The notes under the pieces were generated by a model that was given only the letters and a program-made list of their open reading frames with translations, was not told the DNA's origin and did no database searches. From Escherichia coli (lineage in GTDB: Bacteria; Pseudomonadota; Gammaproteobacteria; Enterobacterales; Enterobacteriaceae), in NCBI RefSeq assembly GCF_030013595.1, contig NZ_CP122768.1: a DNA stretch of 64,000 nucleotides; one strand, 5' to 3'. This document shows positions 2,496 to 54,322 of this stretch, piece by piece. The position numbers were made by a program, and so were the translations under genes. Within the stretch, counting starts at the first letter, position 1. Each line of letters opens with the position of its first letter.

Positions 2496-4145
2496 GTGAA
2501 CTGGCGCAGAATCGTCTGGCTATTGGCGTTGGTTACTCTGCCAACGCTTGCGGAGGAGACGCCGTTACAACTGGTGCTGCGCGGTGCGCAGCACGATCAA
2601 CTGTATCAGCTGTCGTCATCAGGCGTGACCAAAGTCTCAGCATTACCTGACATGCTCACCACGCCGTTAGGGAGTTTGTGGAAACTGTATGTTTACGCCT
2701 GGCTGGAGGATACCCATCAACCGGAGCAGGCCTACCAGTGTCGTGGAAACTCCCCGGAAGAGGTTTATTGTTGTCAGGCTGGGGAGAGCATAACGCGCGA
2801 TACCGCGCTGGTACGTTCCTGTGGGCTCTATTTTGCGCCGCAGCGGTTGCATATTGGCGCAGATGTGTGGGGGCAATACTGGCAACAGCGTCAGGCACCT
2901 GCGTGGTTAGCGTCTCTTACTACGCTGAAGCCAGAAACCTCGGTAACGGTTAAATCACTGCTTGATTCATTAGCGACGTTACCCGCGCAAAACAAAGCTC
3001 AGGAAGTCTTACTGGATGTGGTGCTGGACGAGGCGAAAATCGGTGTCGCATCTATGCTCGGTAGTCGGGTACGGGTGAAAACCTGGAGCTGGTTTGCCGA
3101 TAATAAACAGGAAATCCGTCAGGGTGGTTTTGCTGGCTGGTTAACCGATGGTACACCGCTGTGGGCTACTGGCAGTGGCACCAGCAAAACGGTACTAACC
3201 CGTTATGCGACGGTGCTTAATCGAGTTTTGCCAGTGCCGACGCAGGTTGCCAGTGGGCAATGTGTAGAGGTGGAACTGTTTGCCCGCTATCCGCTGAAGA
3301 AAATCACAGCGGAAAAGAGTACGACGGCAGTAAAACCCGGCGTACTTAATGGGCGCTATCGTGTGACGTTTACTAATGGTAACCACATTACGTTTGTCAG
3401 CCACGGTGAGACGACCTTACTGAGCGAAAAGGGCAAACTGAAATTGCAGTCGCATCTTGATCGTGAAGAGTACGTTGCCAGAGTTCTGGATCGCGAGGCG
3501 AAAAGTACGCCCCCTGAGGCAGCGAAAGCCATGACCGTGGCGATTCGCACTTTTTTACAGCAAAACGCCAATCGGGAAGGCGATTGCCTGACCATCCCCG
3601 ACAGTAGCGCCACGCAGCGTGTTTCTGCTTCGCCAGCGACCACGGGGGCGCGAACGATGACCGCCTGGACGCAGGATCTCATCTATGCGGGCGATCCGGT
3701 TCATTATCACGGCAGTCGCGCTACCGAAGGGACGCTTTCCTGGCGGCAAGCCATGGCCCAGGCGGGGCAGGGGGAGCGTTACGACCAGATACTCGCGTTT
3801 GCTTATCCCGACAACAGCCTTAGCCGCTGGGGAGCGCCACGCTCAACCTGCCAGTTATTACCCAAAGCGAAAGCCTGGCTGGCGAAAAAAATGCCGCAGT
3901 GGCGGCGTATATTACAAGGTGAGACGGGGTACAACGAACCAGACGTGTTTGCGGTTTGCCGTTTAGTCTCAGGTTTCCCCTATACCGATCGGCAGCAGAA
4001 ACGGCTGTTTATTCGTAACTTCTTTACGCTTCAGGATCGGCTCGATTTAACCCATGAGTATCTGCATCTGGCCTTTGATGGTTATCCCACCGGGCTTGAT
4101 GAGAACTATATCGAAACGCTGACCCGACAATTATTAATGGACTAA
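2496..4145 (+). CDS. yfaQ: DUF2300-type secreted protein YfaQ
   Basis: 549 aa ORF with N-terminal signal peptide, GTG start abutting yfaS stop; length and position match E. coli yfaQ. Confidence 0.8.
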   Translation: MNWRRIVWLLALVTLPTLAEETPLQLVLRGAQHDQLYQLSSSGVTKVSALPDMLTTPLGSLWKLYVYAWLEDTHQPEQAYQCRGNSPEEVYCCQAGESITRDTALVRSCGLYFAPQRLHIGADVWGQYWQQRQAPAWLASLTTLKPETSVTVKSLLDSLATLPAQNKAQEVLLDVVLDEAKIGVASMLGSRVRVKTWSWFADNKQEIRQGGFAGWLTDGTPLWATGSGTSKTVLTRYATVLNRVLPVPTQVASGQCVEVELFARYPLKKITAEKSTTAVKPGVLNGRYRVTFTNGNHITFVSHGETTLLSEKGKLKLQSHLDREEYVARVLDREAKSTPPEAAKAMTVAIRTFLQQNANREGDCLTIPDSSATQRVSASPATTGARTMTAWTQDLIYAGDPVHYHGSRATEGTLSWRQAMAQAGQGERYDQILAFAYPDNSLSRWGAPRSTCQLLPKAKAWLAKKMPQWRRILQGETGYNEPDVFAVCRLVSGFPYTDRQQKRLFIRNFFTLQDRLDLTHEYLHLAFDGYPTGLDENYIETLTRQLLMD

Positions 4146-9041: not shown

Positions 9042-10427
9042 TTATACATCCGCCGGATCGATACCGTATTCCTGCAGTTTATACATCAATGCACGGCGAC
9101 TGATGCCCAGCATTAAAGCAGTGCGGGTTCGGTTTCCTTCTTGTTGTTCCAGCACTTCCATAATGATGCGTTTTTCGACGCGTTTAATTTCCTCTTTTAA
9201 ATTACGCTCACCGACAGGGGCTGTTTTTGCCTCACCAGCATTACAGACTGGCTGACGAATCTGTGGCGGAAGATCCTCAGAAAAAATGATCGGGCCTGAG
9301 TTCATCACGACGGCGCGTTCAATAACGTTGGAAAGCTCTCGAATATTTCCCGGCCATGACCAGGCGGTAAGCAGTGACATTGCCATCGGATCGATGTCGA
9401 TAATATCGCGCTGATTCTCACTACTGAATTTTTGCAAAAAGTGATTAGCTAACAGGGAAATATCTTCCCGGCGATCGCGCAGAGGCGGCAGTATTAAATG
9501 AATAACGTTAAGGCGATAAAAGAGATCTTCACGGAAGGTGCCTTCTTTTACCATTGCCTGCAAGTCACGGTTGGTGGCAGCAATGATGCGGATATCAACT
9601 TTTATGGTCTGATGGCCGCCAATCCGTTCAAATTCCCGTTCCTGCAGAATGCGTAGTAATTTGGCTTGCAGTACGAGCGGCATTTCGCCAATTTCGTCGA
9701 GGAGCAGAGTACCTTCGTTGGCACGTTCAAATAATCCCTGACGCAAGGTTTGTGCACCAGTAAATGCACCTTTTTCATGACCAAACAGTTCACTTTCGAG
9801 CAACGATTCCGGCAGCGCCGCGCAGTTGACTTTAATGAACGGCCCCTTTGCCCGCCGCGAATTGTAGTGAATCGCTCTGGCAATCAACTCTTTCCCGGTG
9901 CCGCTTTCACCGCTAATCAAGACGCTGGCCTGAGAAAGGGCAATTTTGGCGGTGTCTTTGCAGATGTCCATCATCGCCGGGCTGTTGGTGAGAATGTGCC
10001 CCCATTGCCAGCTGGTGCTCAGTGCCTGGTGCAGATGGCGGATCTCTTTTTTCATTGACTGGAGTTGTAAAGCGCGCTGAACGATTAAATTCAACTCATC
10101 GAGATCAAACGGTTTGATAACATAGTCGAAGGCTCCGCAGCGTAGCGCTTCGACGGCGTTTTCCACTTCAGCATAGGCCGTCATCAGAATAACGGGTGTC
10201 CGGGTCTCATTACTGCGCATCTCCTTGAGTGCCTTGATGCCGTCCATCTCTGGCATGCGGATATCCATCAACACCACGTCAGGGTGAATATCAGCAAACA
10301 GGTGTAATGCTGTGCGTCCGTTGTTCGCACAATGTGTTTCGAAACCTTGTAGTGCAAAAGCGGTGCTCAGCATACGGCGAACATTATCTTCATCATCCAC
10401 AATAAGGATGCGATTAATAGCAGTCAT
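9042..10427 (-). CDS. atoC: NtrC-family sigma54-dependent response regulator AtoC
   Basis: 461 aa with receiver domain, AAA+ GESGTGKE Walker A, GAFTGA motif and C-terminal HTH. Confidence 0.93.
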   Translation of the reverse strand: MTAINRILIVDDEDNVRRMLSTAFALQGFETHCANNGRTALHLFADIHPDVVLMDIRMPEMDGIKALKEMRSNETRTPVILMTAYAEVENAVEALRCGAFDYVIKPFDLDELNLIVQRALQLQSMKKEIRHLHQALSTSWQWGHILTNSPAMMDICKDTAKIALSQASVLISGESGTGKELIARAIHYNSRRAKGPFIKVNCAALPESLLESELFGHEKGAFTGAQTLRQGLFERANEGTLLLDEIGEMPLVLQAKLLRILQEREFERIGGHQTIKVDIRIIAATNRDLQAMVKEGTFREDLFYRLNVIHLILPPLRDRREDISLLANHFLQKFSSENQRDIIDIDPMAMSLLTAWSWPGNIRELSNVIERAVVMNSGPIIFSEDLPPQIRQPVCNAGEAKTAPVGERNLKEEIKRVEKRIIMEVLEQQEGNRTRTALMLGISRRALMYKLQEYGIDPADV

Positions 10428-48537: not shown

Positions 48538-48858
48538 CTCACTTTTTAATCCTTATATATACGCAAAAGTGAGGTAAATAGTTAAGTTTTAGTTAATATC
48601 TTGCATGGTGTGTTTTTTAACCTACCTGTTATTTTTATTACCTCATTTCTATTAACTCACCATTCCTCACTTTTGTTCCTCACTTTTTATTATTCTTGTT
48701 CTGCTCCTCAGTCGTTTTCTTTATTGTTGTAATCTGTTGTTTTGCAATGTGTTTTTAACTCCTCACTTTTTGACCTATATACAGGTGAGAAAGTGAGGAG
48801 TGGCGTTGATTTTTTGTTAAATTACCCGCCATCCTCACTTTTGCTCCTCACTTTTTAC
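48538..48858. repeat. iteron array in AT-rich region (putative island replication origin)
   Basis: at least 8 copies of TCCTCACTTTT in both orientations directly after the replication gene stop. Confidence 0.75.
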
Positions 48859-50270
48859 AGTGGGCGCACATAATCACCGTCAATAGCGATTACGCCGTCG
48901 CTTTCCAGCTTGTACAGCCAGCGCCGGAAGTGTTTCATCTCATACCCCAGCTTTTTCATATCATCGCGGAGAAGGGCGATAGTGCACGCCTCCCCGTGTG
49001 CTGTTCGCGTTCTGATGCACTGCCATAGCGCAGCGTGATTTTCCGTCTTGTTCCCGGCCTCCTCGATGCGTTCCAGTTCAACAGGTGGGCGCGGCTTATC
49101 CACAACCACCAGCGACGTGATTAACTCCCCGTCAGTGTCGGTAAAAAGCTCCACCACGCGTAAATCATATGCAGCCTCTTTCAGTTCCTCCGCGTCCTTC
49201 ATTTTGGTGCAGGAGATAACCAGGGCTTCACTGTCCGCACCTTCACGGCGAATACGGTATTCAGCGTCCAGAGATGCACGAAATGCACTGGAACCACGCG
49301 CCCCTTTTGTTTCATCCTTGCCGGAATGGTGAACCACCAGTACCGTGGCCCCTGTGCGTCGTTTCAGTTCGTCACATCCACGGATAAACGCCCCCATATC
49401 CCGCGCGTCATTTTCATCATTACCGCCAAAGCAACGCGCCAGCGTATCCAGAATAATCATGCGTACCGGTTTACCCGTTTCCCGTTCAACCTGACGGGAA
49501 GCGATGACCATTTCATCAACATCAAGCGGGACCGCCGGAAAAATCGGGCGGTTTACCAGGTACAGATTTTTCACCCGTTCATCATTAACGATTTCCCATG
49601 CTTTGATACGACGAGGAACACCGATCCCGCCCTCACCAACGACATACATAACCGCACCATGTACAACCCTGCGACCTCCCCAGTGGCGACCAGTGGCAAC
49701 ATGACACGCCCAGGAACACGCGAGGAACGATTTATAGGAACCGCTCGCGCCGTATGTGCTGCACAACGAATTAGCCGGAATCACGCCCTTAACGACATAA
49801 TCAAGCTGTGTGTCGTATCCTGCAGATCCAATACTCATTGGTAGCGTGGTTTTTCGCTGGCTGTATTGCTCGTCAGTAAGTATTTCCCCGCGCTCTGCCT
49901 GTTCGCGGATCCGTTGCAGGTAGTCGTGCCAGTTCTCCAGCTTCTGGCTGTGCATTCCCTCAGGGTAATAATTCGCATCCCGTACACCTGCCGCCGCCAG
50001 TTTTTGCCCGATGGCATTAATATTTGACGGCTTGATGTGGCCTGCCTTGTACAGCCGGACACAATAGCGACCATCGTCGATAATTTTCAGGTCTGCCAGT
50101 TCGTCAAGCTGGCTGTCTCCCAGCCATACAGGCGGAACATTGTCGCCAGCAAGTCGCCCGTCCTGTTCCTGCCATTGTTTCGCGTGCGCCCAGGCATCAC
50201 TACCCGCAAAAATAATGACTTCGGTCATTTTGTCGTGTGGCTGTTTTTTTAAGTTCGGTGCCAGTTTCAT
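48855..50270 (-). CDS. replication initiator ATPase/helicase (RecA-fold, primase-associated type)
   Basis: 471 aa with Walker A GASGSYKS and Walker B-like RMIILDTL; followed by iterons. Confidence 0.7.
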   Translation of the reverse strand: MKLAPNLKKQPHDKMTEVIIFAGSDAWAHAKQWQEQDGRLAGDNVPPVWLGDSQLDELADLKIIDDGRYCVRLYKAGHIKPSNINAIGQKLAAAGVRDANYYPEGMHSQKLENWHDYLQRIREQAERGEILTDEQYSQRKTTLPMSIGSAGYDTQLDYVVKGVIPANSLCSTYGASGSYKSFLACSWACHVATGRHWGGRRVVHGAVMYVVGEGGIGVPRRIKAWEIVNDERVKNLYLVNRPIFPAVPLDVDEMVIASRQVERETGKPVRMIILDTLARCFGGNDENDARDMGAFIRGCDELKRRTGATVLVVHHSGKDETKGARGSSAFRASLDAEYRIRREGADSEALVISCTKMKDAEELKEAAYDLRVVELFTDTDGELITSLVVVDKPRPPVELERIEEAGNKTENHAALWQCIRTRTAHGEACTIALLRDDMKKLGYEMKHFRRWLYKLESDGVIAIDGDYVRPL

Positions 50271-51986: not shown

Positions 51987-52193
51987 TTACGCAGCCGTTC
52001 CGCGCGCTTCTTCCTCGCGCTCTTTCAGCCAGGCCAGCACTTCATCTTCATACCAGCCAACACGACGCAGACCGATTTTGAATCCTTTCGGGAATTTTCC
52101 GGCGTTGATCATGTCCTGTAGCGAACTGTCTGCCTTGATGCGCAGAATATTTTTTACTTCCTGACGGGTAAGAATTTTTCTGATTACTTCCAT
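51987..52193 (-). CDS. alpA: AlpA-family phage regulatory protein (excisionase/activator-like)
   Basis: 68 aa; ...GKFPKGFKIGLRRVGWYEDEVLAWL matches the AlpA HTH signature. Confidence 0.75.
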   Translation of the reverse strand: MEVIRKILTRQEVKNILRIKADSSLQDMINAGKFPKGFKIGLRRVGWYEDEVLAWLKEREEEARGTAA

Positions 52194-52261
52194 CGTGTTT
52201 TACCTCATTAATCCGGCGTATTCCGGTGATAAATACGGTAAAACAGGGCAGGGCGGGAAAA

Positions 52262-52295
52262 ACAGTACCCACCGTTTTAAAACGGTACCCACTGT
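52262..52295. promoter_or_regulatory. palindrome ACCGTTTTAAAACGGT flanked by GTACCCAC repeats upstream of alpA
   Basis: perfect 16 bp palindrome 52271..52286 about 80 bp upstream of alpA start. Confidence 0.4.
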
Positions 52296-52325
52296 TTTTT
52301 ATCTCATTGATTTCGCTTTCTTTTT

Positions 52326-52720: not shown

Positions 52721-53962
52721 TTATACGGCACGGATACCCCTTTTACCACTGGCTATGGTCACTCCAGTTGCTGCGGCCTCTACAAATTCCCCCCACCAGC
52801 GCATAAGCACCACGCGCTTTTCCAGGTAGTTACTTCGGTTATATGCTCGCCTTACCTCGTTCGTGTCCACGTGTGCGAGTGCGGCCTCGATTACGTCCGG
52901 CTCGAATCCTTCCTCGTTCGCTGCTGTACTGAATATGGCGCGTAATCCGTGAGACACCAGCACACCAGCGTAACCCATCCGGCGTAATGCAGCGTTAGCG
53001 GTCTGGCTGCTCATTGGTAGCATTGGATTTTTAAGGCTGGGAAAAACATGTTCCCTGTGTGCGCTGATTGGCTTCATGGTTTCCAGTACAGCCATAGCCT
53101 GACCGCAAAGGGGGATCACATGGTCACGGCGCATCTTCATGCGTCCGGCTGGAATCGTCCAGGTTTCGGCATCGAGATCTATTTCTTCCCAGCGTGCGGC
53201 GGCTGCTTCGGCTGGGCGTGCTACGGTCAACAGTTGCCACTCGATCAGCAATCTGGTTTGCCGTTCTATGCTGGCGACCGATAAATCGTGCATTAGCTGC
53301 GGTAGCTGTTCCGGTCGGATGGTTGGCATGTGCTTTTTGGTGGGTGAGGGAAATGCCTTGCGGACGTTAGCAGCGGTGTTGATGTCAATCAGCCCACTGT
53401 TGGCGGCAAAATCCATCACTTCATTGATGCGCTGCAAAACGCGTTTCAGTGTTTCCAGGTTGCCGCGTGCTTTAATGGGGGTGAGTATCTCAACAAAGCG
53501 GCGAGCGGTGAGGGTATCTATTGGCGTGTTTCCGATGTACGGGAATACGTATTTTTCCAGGGATCGCCAGATATCCTTAATCGTGTTGTAAGCCAGATTC
53601 TGGCCTTTTTTCATCTCGTACCAGTCCGAGGCAACTTTTTCGAACGTGTTGCCCTTTTTCCGACTCTCTGCTTCACGTTTCCGGCGTTCGTGGTCCTGTG
53701 GGTCAACTCCCTTCGCTATGAGTGACCTGTATTCATTCCGTCGTTCTCTGGCATCGGACAGGGAAACATCATTCAGCGATCCGAGGCTGATGATAGTCCG
53801 TTTTTTATCTGCCGGGCGGTAGTACGTAAAACGCCAGATTTTTGATCCGGAGGGTTTCACCAGAAGAAATAATCCTCCGCCATCCTGCAGGGTGTATTCC
53901 TTTTCCCCTGGTCGTGCGTTTTTGATCTCCGTAATAGTTAGTGGGGTGGTTTTTCGTGCCAT
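52721..53962 (-). CDS. int: tyrosine-type site-specific integrase (P4-like)
   Basis: 413 aa; N-terminal arm-binding-like domain, C-terminal catalytic region with HGLRA...RRAYNRSNY; adjacent to tRNA. Confidence 0.9.
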   Translation of the reverse strand: MARKTTPLTITEIKNARPGEKEYTLQDGGGLFLLVKPSGSKIWRFTYYRPADKKRTIISLGSLNDVSLSDARERRNEYRSLIAKGVDPQDHERRKREAESRKKGNTFEKVASDWYEMKKGQNLAYNTIKDIWRSLEKYVFPYIGNTPIDTLTARRFVEILTPIKARGNLETLKRVLQRINEVMDFAANSGLIDINTAANVRKAFPSPTKKHMPTIRPEQLPQLMHDLSVASIERQTRLLIEWQLLTVARPAEAAAARWEEIDLDAETWTIPAGRMKMRRDHVIPLCGQAMAVLETMKPISAHREHVFPSLKNPMLPMSSQTANAALRRMGYAGVLVSHGLRAIFSTAANEEGFEPDVIEAALAHVDTNEVRRAYNRSNYLEKRVVLMRWWGEFVEAAATGVTIASGKRGIRAV

Positions 53963-53978
53963 GTTTTTTTACTCATCG

Positions 53979-54053
53979 GTAGCTATATGCCTGGTCGTAG
54001 CTATACGGCTTTAGCTACACGCTGGACCGTATAGCTAAACGTGTAGCTAAAAA
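53979..54053 (+). repeat. cluster of five GTAGCTA(T/A)A-type repeats (putative integrase arm sites), including the 25 bp copy at 54029..54053
   Basis: gtagctata, cgtagctatacgg, ttagctacacg, gtatagctaaacg, gtgtagctaaaaa. Confidence 0.6.
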
Positions 54054-54171
54054 ATCCGGTTATAACCCTATCTTACCGATTCAATCCGGCGACTGAAAAC
54101 AACAAAAAAGCCCGTTAATCAGTAAATTAACGGGCTTTCAATAGGTTACCGATGCTGTCCGATATTCGATT

Positions 54172-54248
54172 TGGTCGGCACGAGAGGATTTGAACCTCCG
54201 ACCCCCGACACCCCATGACGGTGCGCTACCAGGCTGCGCTACGTGCCG
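54172..54248 (-). tRNA. proL: tRNA-Pro (anticodon GGG)
   Basis: minus-strand 77 nt CGGCACGTAGCGCAGCCTGGTAGCGCACCGTCATGGGGTGTCGGGGGTCGGAGGTTCAAATCCTCTCGTGCCGACCA. Confidence 0.95.
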
Positions 54249-54322
54249 ACTCGTGGCTGTTAATACTACCGTTTTCCACACCGATTGCAAGTAAGATATT
54301 TTGCTAACTGATTTATAATTAA

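What the first reader, a model, noticed from the sequence alone, without database searches (positions are those of the whole stretch)
53979..54053. GTAGCTA-type repeats at both island ends, including a 24/25 identical 25 bp direct repeat
Five GTAGCTA(T/A)A-like motifs lie just upstream of the int start. The distal end carries two more, including a near-identical 25 bp copy at 44048..44072 of the sequence at 54029..54053. Their placement just inside both junctions matches arm-type integrase binding sites and helps define the element boundaries.
Basis: seen in the sequence. Interest (0 to 1): 0.4.

Follow-up and report, generated by a model that had tools for sequence, protein, structure and literature searches.

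The report
Integrase arm-binding repeats of a satellite island
The short repeats at both ends of this 10-kb mobile island are very probably the docking sites that its own integrase uses to fold the island ends together for insertion and excision, which is an ordinary, long-known feature of phage P4-type elements.

Summary
A doubled 12-nt repeat (CGTATAGCTAAA-CGTGTAGCTAAA) lies at 54028-54051, and a 25/26 copy lies at 44047-44072. Three more copies, inverted, sit between the first pair and the int start. They lie 120 nt and 61 nt inside the junctions of a 10.2-kb PICI-like satellite inserted at tRNA-Pro (proL); E. coli K-12 has the empty site.

The integrase has an arm-DNA-binding N-domain (Pfam PF13356; PDB 3JU0 and 3JTZ). 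The layout matches the 'attP arm sequence repeats' annotated in phage P4.

In related islands the repeat sequence changes (TAGCTA, TAACTA, GGGACTAG, TGACTACACC), but it always changes at both ends together. Its distances to the crossover stay fixed, while its distance to the int ATG varies.

All 29 residues that separate the two proL integrase classes lie in the arm-binding domain (residues 1-85). AlpA does not separate the classes.

This is a new member of a known kind. No binding experiment exists. Interest is low to moderate.

The parts
54040..54051 (+). Arm-type site 5 (CGTGTAGCTAAA). It is the core-proximal half of the int-side doubled motif.
   Evidence: Exact match to the 12-mer consensus. 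It starts 121 nt from the tRNA CCA end in the window, L001, L003, L005, L009-L012 (122 in L007; 132 in L004, which has an 11-nt insertion).
54028..54039 (+). Arm-type site 4 (CGTATAGCTAAA). It is the second half of the int-side doubled motif.
   Evidence: Position +133 from the tRNA end is conserved.
54010..54021 (-). Arm-type site 3 (CGTGTAGCTAAA), inverted relative to sites 4 and 5.
   Evidence: Position +151 is conserved in both motif classes.
53996..54007 (-). Arm-type site 2 (CGTATAGCTACG, 2 mismatches), inverted.
   Evidence: Position +165/166 is conserved, and the site is a perfect CGTATAACTAAA in L003 and L004.
53978..53989 (-). Possible weak fifth site (CATATAGCTACC, 3 mismatches), 15 nt upstream of the int ATG.
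   Evidence: It is absent in L003-L008. Its position (+183) coincides with a fifth site at +184 in the class B islands L010 and L011.
44047..44058 (+). Arm-type site 6 (CGTATAGCTTAA), first half of the distal doubled motif.
   Evidence: It lies 61 nt from the ACGAGAG core copy, the same distance as in the six islands with a tRNA-type distal junction that were scanned for this motif.
44059..44070 (+). Arm-type site 7 (CGTGTAGCTAAA), second half of the distal doubled motif.
54170..54176 (.). Int-side copy of the crossover segment TTTGGTC. It overlaps the 3' CCA end of proL.
   Evidence: Three-way alignment with the empty K-12 site.
43972..43985 (.). Distal junction: the crossover copy TTTGGTC followed by ACGAGAG, a truncated copy of the tRNA 3' end that lacks 3 nt.
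   Evidence: Variable deletions at this spot are reported for PICIs at tRNA-Pro (PMC10111431).
54172..54248 (-). tRNA-Pro(GGG), proL, the integration target.
   Evidence: ARAGORN. K-12 annotation.
52721..53962 (-). int, a 413-aa P4-family tyrosine integrase. Residues 8-94 form the arm-DNA-binding domain.
   Evidence: Pfam PF13356, PF22022 and PF00589. PDB 3JU0 at E=4e-20 and 3JTZ at E=2e-12.
51987..52193 (-). alpA, the likely excisionase and transcriptional regulator of the island.
   Evidence: Pfam Phage_AlpA. PHROG 'excisionase and transcriptional regulator'.
54106..54139 (-). Hairpin with a T-run between the core and the arm sites. It is a terminator for proL supplied by the island and forms part of the P-arm spacer.
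   Evidence: The stem is kept through paired base changes in related islands.
43979..44128 (.). Distal att arm that travels with the integrase type rather than with the cargo.
   Evidence: L086 has the same cargo from about window 44129 onward, but a different integrase and a different distal arm.

Best explanation
The repeats are the arm-type binding sites of the island's own P4-family tyrosine integrase.

When the island is excised and circular, its two ends join into one attP of about 300 bp. In order, this contains: the int start; two or three inverted 12-mers; a doubled 12-mer centred about 133 nt from the crossover; a spacer holding a terminator hairpin; the crossover TTTGGTC at the CCA end of proL; a 61-nt A/T-rich spacer; and a second, co-oriented doubled 12-mer centred about 84 nt from the crossover.

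Each integrase subunit binds a core site with its C-terminal domains and a 12-mer (CGTRTARCTAAA) with its N-terminal domain. This bridges the arms to the core and assembles the complex that integrates into proL or excises from it. AlpA is the likely directionality factor.

The int-side sites fill the roughly 90 nt upstream of the int ATG. Bound integrase therefore probably also represses its own promoter, as shown for KplE1 IntS.

Shown here: the anatomy, the junctions, the domain content, and the co-variation and fixed spacing across relatives. Inferred: the binding itself, the roles of individual sites, the AlpA role and autoregulation.
For: Junctions:
- The junctions and the empty site are mapped against K-12. 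The island sits at tRNA-Pro.

Integrase:
- Int has Arm-DNA-bind_3 at E=7e-24. Its N-terminus matches the solved arm-type binding domains 3JU0 and 3JTZ.

P4 comparison:
- The P4 record annotates 12-nt 'attP arm sequence repeats' in the same layout. There is a tandem pair on the int side, an inverted copy at the int start, the core, then a co-oriented tandem pair.

Concerted change at both ends:
- The motif becomes CGTATAACTAAA in L003 and L004.
- It becomes CTAGTCCYAAA in L011.
- It becomes TGACTACACC in L086. That island shares the cargo but has another integrase at another site, and has no CGTRTARCTAAA at all.

Geometry:
- Int-side sites start at +121, +133, +151 and +165/166 from the tRNA end in both motif classes. 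The distal pair starts 73 nt and 61 nt from the core copy in six islands.
- The distance to the ATG ranges from -89 to -53.

Conservation:
- Site columns are far better conserved than their surroundings: 30/48 invariant against 16/132, Fisher p=7e-11.

Which protein tracks the motif:
- All 29 alignment columns that separate class A from class B integrases lie in residues 1-85, and none lie in 96-413.
- AlpA identity does not separate the classes, and its helix-turn-helix region is class-invariant.
- The P-arm spacer is 87-88% identical between classes, while the site block is only 51-53% identical.

Population:
- The 31-mer occurs in 91 of 5426 E. coli genomes. The median is two places per genome, and 89 of the 91 best matches are at least 99% identical.
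- The surrounding 472 nt is only 90-99% identical in most of the same genomes.
Against: - There is no binding or recombination experiment for this island or its close relatives.
- The int-side sites and the N-domain coding region are adjacent. Their joint replacement could be one linked recombination patch rather than co-adaptation. Only the matching distal pair argues beyond linkage.
- Class B rests on three intact integrases, which are not independent of each other.
- No sigma-70-like int promoter was found by consensus scan, so the autoregulation step is only an analogy.
- The 3-nt deletion in the distal tRNA fragment could mean that this copy excises poorly.
- Tandem repeats about one helical turn apart are also typical of excisionase sites (PMC7498355 abstract).
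Confidence: 0.85

Rival explanations
1. The doubled motifs are binding sites for the island's AlpA excisionase/regulator, or for another island-encoded DNA-binding protein, rather than for the integrase.
For: - Mageeney et al. left exactly this open for the analogous doubled motif of HE-PICIs (PMC10111431).
- Directionality-factor sites are typically direct repeats about one helical turn apart (PMC7498355 abstract).
- AlpA is encoded in the island.
Against: - AlpA does not track the motif class. Class B AlpAs are 67-71% identical to the window's, which is the same as for distant class A members (66-68%).
- Only 5 of 79 AlpA columns separate the classes, and none of them lies in the helix-turn-helix region.
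- By contrast, 29 class-separating columns lie in the Int N-domain.
- The motif occurs on both arms and in inverted copies, as in P4.
Confidence: 0.07
2. The int-side cluster is mainly an operator array that controls the int promoter. The distal copy is incidental or only a secondary use.
For: - The sites fill the roughly 90 nt upstream of the int ATG, and in L009 and L012 they reach the ATG itself.
- In KplE1, the overlap of attL with the intS promoter gives negative autoregulation by IntS and TorI (PMC2951348).
Against: - The sites keep a fixed distance to the crossover, not to the ATG.
- The distal pair is conserved in sequence and spacing in every island whose far end was reachable. No gene start is nearby.
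- No promoter consensus was found.
- This reading is compatible with the main explanation as an added role, not a replacement for it.
Confidence: 0.05
3. The repeats are chance similarity or a relic of duplication at the island ends, and have no function.
For: The short word GTAGCTAWA is not enriched over the window as a whole.
Against: - The expected number of 25/26 repeat pairs is about 4e-5 per window, and the cluster probability is about 1e-8.
- The sequences between the repeats and the core are unrelated on the two arms, so this is not one long duplication.
- The repeats are conserved and co-vary across species.
- The 31-mer is at least 99% identical in 89 of the 91 genomes that carry it.
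Confidence: 0.01
4. The repeats are sites for a host architectural protein such as IHF or Fis.
For: Host bending proteins are standard parts of tyrosine-integrase complexes (PMC2951348 introduction).
Against: - Within E. coli and close relatives, the motif is replaced by unrelated sequences when the integrase type changes. A host factor with fixed specificity would not allow this.
Confidence: 0.02

Closest known systems
Phage P4 attP arm repeats. They are annotated in NC_001609 as 'attP arm sequence repeat'. From my own knowledge, they were described by Pierson & Kahn, J Mol Biol 1987.
   Same: - Both have 12-nt units.
- Both have a tandem 12+12 pair on the int side, centred about 133 nt from the core centre.
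- Both have a co-oriented tandem pair on the other side of the core (about 75 nt in P4, about 84 nt here).
- Both have inverted copy or copies next to or over the int start.
- In both, int is read away from the core and the target is a tRNA 3' end.
- Both integrases carry the same arm-DNA-binding domain family.
   Different: - The motif sequence is unrelated (ATGCCCCCAA in P4).
- The target is leuX, not proL.
- P4 has one inverted copy where this island has two or three, and a further copy inside int that is absent here.
- The element here is a PICI-like satellite with a RepA-type helicase, not P4 itself.
Doubled motif tgTGTATTGCa x2 in the attP of helper-embedded PICIs (Mageeney et al. 2023, PMC10111431).
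   Same: - A tandem doubled motif with 12-nt period.
- Two co-oriented copies, precisely placed 81+/-2 and 132+/-2 bp from the attP centre. Here the distances are about 84 and about 133.
- The elements are PICI satellites with AlpA.
- The same paper reports variable deletions in the tRNA-Pro fragment at PICI junctions, which I also see here.
   Different: - A different integrase clade, motif and target (prophage late genes).
- The authors reported that their motif was not found in other PICIs.
- They could not decide between Int arm domains and AlpA. The N-domain co-variation here favours Int.
KplE1 (CPS-53) IntS/TorI module at argW (Panis et al. 2010, PMC2951348).
   Same: The integrase gene sits next to the tRNA junction, with arm-type sites overlapping its own promoter region. 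Negative autoregulation was shown there.
   Different: - A different integrase lineage and a different site arrangement.
- TorI sites were mapped experimentally. Nothing has been mapped here.
Lambda Int arm sites P1, P2 and P'1-P'3 (my own knowledge, and the introduction of PMC2951348).
   Same: The same principle of a two-specificity integrase that bridges arm and core sites. Both have multiple sites on both arms in mixed orientation.
   Different: - The arm-binding domain belongs to a different Pfam family.
- int is not adjacent to and facing away from the core in the same way.
- The number and spacing of sites differ.

Membership tests
Arm-type sites of a heterobivalent tyrosine integrase (P4-type attP) | The cognate integrase has a separate N-terminal arm-DNA-binding domain. 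| tested here: met
   Pfam PF13356 covers residues 8-94 at E=7e-24. PDB 3JU0 and 3JTZ, the solved arm-type binding domains, match at E=4e-20 and 2e-12.
Arm-type sites of a heterobivalent tyrosine integrase (P4-type attP) | Repeated short sites lie on both sides of the crossover, inside the element, and differ in sequence from the core. | tested here: met
   Four or five sites lie 120-190 nt from the int-side junction, and two lie 61-85 nt from the distal junction. The junctions were mapped against the empty K-12 site.
Arm-type sites of a heterobivalent tyrosine integrase (P4-type attP) | The sites are specific to the integrase type: they change with the integrase and not with the target or the cargo. 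| tested here: met
   - Same proL target but a different motif in L009-L011.
- Same cargo but a different integrase and motif in L086.
- Same motif but a different core in L008.
- Class-specific residues lie only in Int residues 1-85.
Arm-type sites of a heterobivalent tyrosine integrase (P4-type attP) | Fixed spacing and phasing relative to the crossover. | tested here: met
   Starts are at +121, +133, +151 and +165/166 on the int side, and at 73 and 61 nt on the distal side, across relatives. The one exception, L004, is shifted by 11 nt, about one helical turn.
Arm-type sites of a heterobivalent tyrosine integrase (P4-type attP) | The integrase N-domain physically binds the sites, and recombination requires them. 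| not testable with these tools
   This needs gel shift or footprinting, and attP mutagenesis.
Phage-inducible chromosomal island (PICI-like satellite) | About 10-15 kb, with int, alpA and a primase/helicase replication module, few or no structural genes, and site-specific insertion with an empty site in other strains. | tested here: met
   - The island is 10.2 kb.
- It encodes int, alpA, a RepA-type helicase (AAA_25), ProQ, PerC, a protease-like DUF2213 protein and a TerS-like N-terminus.
- The empty site is in K-12. RefSeq annotation of near-identical islands agrees.
Phage-inducible chromosomal island (PICI-like satellite) | Induction, packaging and transfer by a helper phage. | not testable with these tools
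   No experiment is available, and no helper was identified.
Integrase promoter overlapped by att sites (KplE1-type autoregulation) | The int promoter lies within the arm-site region, and Int represses it. | tested here: inconclusive
   The sites occupy the whole region upstream of the ATG. No promoter consensus was found, and there are no expression data.

The most novel reading that the evidence does not exclude
Satellites that compete for the same target (proL) have diversified into at least three arm 'dialects' (TAGCTA, TAACTA, GGGACTAG). They did so by swapping a cassette made of the arm sites plus the integrase N-domain, while keeping the core-binding and catalytic part.

This would make co-resident or competing islands orthogonal: one island's integrase could neither excise, integrate nor repress another's. 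On this reading the arm sites act as an identity or immunity code, not just scaffolding.
Probability: 0.2. Interest if true: 0.5.

Novelty: new member of a known kind. Interest (0 to 1): 0.28.

Why it matters
The repeats fix the functional ends of this island. attP spans roughly 53978-54176 joined to 43972-44128.

They also give a 12-mer consensus (CGTRTARCTAAA) and a spacing rule. With these, the att arms of proL satellites could be annotated in hundreds of E. coli genomes.

The co-variation with the integrase N-domain, and the lack of it with AlpA, gives computational evidence on a point left open for PICI doubled motifs in 2023: which protein reads them.

Beyond that, this is the expected anatomy of a P4-family recombination module.

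Tried and rejected
- **Short pattern.** GTAGCTAWA with one mismatch is not enriched window-wide. I replaced it with the 12-mer and with cluster and repeat statistics.
- **Promoter scan.** The sigma-70 consensus scan of 53850-54330 found no int promoter, so autoregulation stays an analogy.
- **Literature.** A search for a PICI at proL found nothing in the library. A search for HAI7/HPI arm-domain papers found only a citing paper. A search for P4 Vis/Int arm binding found no primary paper. Statements about Pierson & Kahn 1987 and the P4 Int/Vis work therefore rest on my own knowledge plus the P4 GenBank annotation.
- **Missing distal arms.** No distal arm could be found for L006, L009, L010 and L012-L017. 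For L006, L010, L012, L014 and L015 the held sequence ends soon after int; for L009, L013, L016 and L017 no copy lay within the 10-kb flank, perhaps because the island is longer.
- **Distal spacers across classes.** L007 and L011 were too diverged at the distal spacer to say anything.
- **TAGCTA versus TAACTA.** I considered this a specificity switch and rejected it. Both forms are mixed within single islands (L003, L005, L006, L008, L012), so position 7 is simply R.
- **Pseudogenes.** L007 and L015 integrases carry stops or frameshifts and were excluded from the residue analysis.

Full report
**The observation**

The repeat finder reports 44047-44072 and 54028-54053 as a 26-nt direct repeat with 25/26 identity (D12).

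TAGCTA occurs 12 times in the window. Five copies fall within 70 nt upstream of int and one lies at 44063. A Poisson estimate for such a cluster is about 1e-8, and the expected number of >=25/26 repeat pairs in 64 kb is about 4e-5. The bare 9-mer with one mismatch is not enriched window-wide (18 found, 14.5 expected). The signal is therefore the clustering and the long repeat.

Reading the flanks gives a 12-nt unit, CGTRTAGCTAAA. There are four exact copies and three copies with 1-2 mismatches. One of these (CGTTTAGCTATA, 54030-54041, minus strand) is only the palindromic overlap of site 4. All seven lie at the two island ends.

With the 12-mer the orientations are:
- 54028-54039 and 54040-54051 read on the + strand.
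- 54010-54021, 53996-54007 and the weak 53978-53989 read on the - strand.
- 44047-44058 and 44059-44070 read on the + strand.

**The element**

The only tRNA in the window is tRNA-Pro(GGG) at 54172-54248 on the minus strand. It lies between yejO (41282-43873) and yejM/lapC. In E. coli K-12 these three genes are adjacent.

A three-way alignment with K-12 places the junctions at two copies of TTTGGTC, at 43972-43978 and 54170-54176. The second copy is the CCA end of proL. This gives a 10.2-kb insert.

The distal junction continues with ACGAGAG, a copy of the tRNA 3' end that lacks 3 nt. Related islands carry different small deletions at this spot. Mageeney et al. 2023 report this for PICIs at tRNA-Pro (PMC10111431).

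The insert encodes the following:
- a 413-aa integrase (53962 to 52721) with Arm-DNA-bind_3, Phage_int_M and Phage_integrase domains;
- AlpA;
- a RepA-type primase-helicase;
- ProQ and PerC;
- a protease-like DUF2213 protein;
- a protein with a TerS-like N-terminus.

Near-identical islands are annotated the same way in pig ETEC genomes. The element is a PICI-like satellite. The integrase N-terminus matches the solved arm-type binding domains of the HAI7 and HPI integrases (3JU0 at E=4e-20; 3JTZ at E=2e-12).

**Layout compared with P4**

The GenBank record of phage P4 annotates 12-nt 'attP arm sequence repeats'. These comprise:
- an inverted copy over the int start;
- a tandem pair 16-39 nt upstream of int;
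- the 20-nt core 112 nt further on;
- a co-oriented tandem pair 53 nt beyond the core.

The window has the same plan. Inverted copies lie next to the int start. A tandem pair lies 120 nt from the tRNA end. After joining the ends, a co-oriented tandem pair lies 61 nt beyond the ACGAGAG core copy.

The centres lie about 133 nt and about 84 nt from the crossover. That is close to P4 (about 133 and 75) and to the doubled motif of helper-embedded PICIs (132+/-2 and 81+/-2).

**Relatives**

About 450 of 5426 complete E. coli genomes carry this int-plus-arm region at proL. Of these, 89 are at >=90% identity and 361 are at about 70%.

In two of the 70% islands (L003, L004) the surrounding DNA has diverged, but the 12-mers persist at the same places on both arms, now mostly as CGTATAACTAAA. 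L004 has six perfect copies.

A scan of one genome per species with the integrase protein gave relatives of 53-86% identity. Every one has the same plan upstream of int. The motif falls into classes:
- Class A: CGTRTARCTAAA. Found in E. albertii, Enterobacteriaceae bacterium LSJC7, Edwardsiella hoshinae, Pantoea stewartii and a contig binned to Paenochrobactrum.
- Class B: CTAGTCCYAAA. Found in Erwinia psidii, Escherichia sp., Citrobacter and Rosenbergiella, all at the same proL target.
- Class C: GGTAC-type motifs, at ssrA.

Wherever the far end of the island was within reach (eight islands), a copy of that island's own doubled motif lies there in direct orientation.

A natural module swap gives the sharpest control. 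L086 shares the cargo of the window island from about 44129 onward, but it has a different integrase and sits in yifB. It has no CGTRTARCTAAA anywhere. Instead it carries its own doubled motif, TGACTACACC with 12-nt period, at both ends.

Conversely, L008 keeps the class A motif but has a different, non-tRNA core.

**Geometry**

Measured from the tRNA CCA end, the int-side sites start at +121, +133, +151 and +165/166 in class A and class B alike. Some lineages have a further site at +183/184, and the window's weak site is one of these.

The distal pair starts 73 and 61 nt before the CTCTCGT core copy in all six islands measured. The distance from the pair to the int ATG ranges from -89 to -53.

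The single exception to the int-side spacing, L004, is shifted by 11 nt, which is one helical turn. The sites are therefore positioned relative to the crossover, not relative to the gene start.

In an alignment of eight class A arms, 30 of 48 site columns are invariant against 16 of 132 other columns (Fisher p=7e-11).

Within E. coli, the 31-mer spanning the pair occurs in 91 genomes. The median is two places per genome, and 89 of the 91 best matches are at least 99% identical. The surrounding 472 nt is only 90-99% identical in most of these genomes.

**Which protein reads the repeats**

I compared eight intact class A integrases with three class B integrases. All 29 alignment columns that separate the classes lie in residues 1-85, and none lie in residues 96-413. 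Identity to the window protein is 53-57% in the N-domain but 83-85% in the rest for class B.

AlpA does not separate the classes. Class B AlpAs are 67-71% identical to the window's, the same as distant class A members. Only 5 of 79 columns separate the classes, and none lies in the helix-turn-helix region.

At the DNA level, class A L012 and class B L010/L011 are 87-88% identical in the 120-nt spacer between core and pair. Identity drops to 51-53% in the site block and 60-61% in the N-domain coding region, then returns to 76-83% in the rest of int.

One caveat applies. The int-side sites and the N-domain coding region are contiguous, so their joint replacement could be a single linked patch. 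The matching change of the distal pair lies beyond the conserved spacer and the core. That change is what argues for functional coupling.

**Mechanism**

The 12-mers are arm-type sites bound by the integrase N-domain. They bridge the arms to the core in the integrative and excisive complexes, as in lambda and P4.

The int-side sites cover the entire region upstream of the int ATG, and in L009 and L012 they reach the ATG. Int binding therefore probably also represses int. This was shown for KplE1 IntS, where attL overlaps the promoter (PMC2951348). I recall the same being reported for P4 Int and Vis (my own knowledge). A consensus scan found no promoter, so this step is inferred.

AlpA is the likely directionality factor. 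An element next to the int-side pair is shared by both motif classes: CAGCCGGAWTTTTT when read with int on the plus strand (AAAAATCCGGTTAT on the window's + strand). It resembles ATCCGGATTT beside the P4 pair. This element is a candidate site for AlpA or for a host factor, but that is speculation.

**Novelty**

This is a new member of a known kind. The architecture has been known for P4 since the 1980s and was seen again in HE-PICIs in 2023. Those authors did not find their motif in other PICIs, and they left open whether Int or AlpA reads it.

What is added here:
- the 12-mer for the proL satellites;
- the fixed-slot geometry shared by unrelated motif classes;
- computational evidence that the Int N-domain, not AlpA, tracks the motif.

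The most novel reading not excluded is that swapping the cassette of arm sites plus N-domain makes satellites that compete for proL mutually orthogonal. I give that about 0.2.

Noticed in passing
window 54106-54139 (- strand): A hairpin followed by a T-run lies just downstream of proL, inside the island. The island replaces the native proL terminator (the hairpin at 43935-43965 in the left flank) with its own. The stem differs in L003, L004 and L006-L012 but stays paired.
   Followed up: partly
window 43972-43985; L001, L003, L004, L005 and L011 distal junctions: The tRNA 3' fragment at the distal junction lacks 2-4 nt relative to attB, and the deletion differs between islands (CTCTCGTG-ACCAAA, CTCTCGTGCC-AAA, CTCTCGTGGACCAAA). 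This matches the 'DNA damage' of PICI tRNA-Pro fragments reported in PMC10111431. It may affect excision.
   Followed up: partly
window 48538-48857: A dense set of direct and inverted TCCTCACTTTT repeats lies immediately downstream of the primase-helicase gene (48855-50270, - strand). They are candidate replication-origin iterons.
   Followed up: no
window 44885-45146: At least five copies of TTGACACTT(TTT) lie within longer 16-40 nt repeats, in the non-coding stretch next to the TerS-like gene (45147-45674). Their function is unknown: they could be regulator sites, promoters or a packaging signal.
   Followed up: no
window 44154-44188 and 44265-44299; 44340-44365: A 35-nt direct repeat (83% identical) and a G-rich stretch (GACGGGGCGGGCGGTCC) lie in about 650 nt without genes at the island's distal end. 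This may be a cos or packaging region.
   Followed up: no
window 52258-52299: A 42-nt near-perfect palindrome (AAAAACAGTACCCACCGTTTT / AAAACGGTACCCACTGTTTTT) lies about 65-105 nt upstream of alpA. It is a candidate operator controlling island induction.
   Followed up: no
window 54052-54066; L006-L012 and L085 (P4) 3966-3980: An element next to the int-side pair, CAGCCGGAWTTTTT in int orientation, is kept in both motif classes. It resembles ATCCGGATTT beside the P4 pair. It is a candidate site for the class-invariant AlpA/Vis protein or for a host factor.
   Followed up: partly
L004 (NZ_AP027159.1) between the tRNA end and the arm sites: An 11-nt insertion shifts all four int-side sites by one helical turn (+132, +144, +162 and +176 instead of +121, +133, +151 and +165). 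This would preserve their face on the helix.
   Followed up: partly
L008 (Edwardsiella hoshinae NZ_BAUC01000010.1) about 9780-9800 and about 20330: This island has the class A arm motif and a 77% identical integrase, but it is not at a tRNA 3' end. Its junction repeat is GCGAT(C/A)CTTCAGTAGTA.
   Followed up: no
L086 (NZ_CP122719.1) and L087 (NZ_CP028757.1): The same cargo (helicase, ProQ, PerC, DUF2213) occurs with unrelated integrases at other chromosomal sites (yifB in L086; near dinD in L087). This shows modular exchange of the whole int-att module among these satellites.
   Followed up: partly
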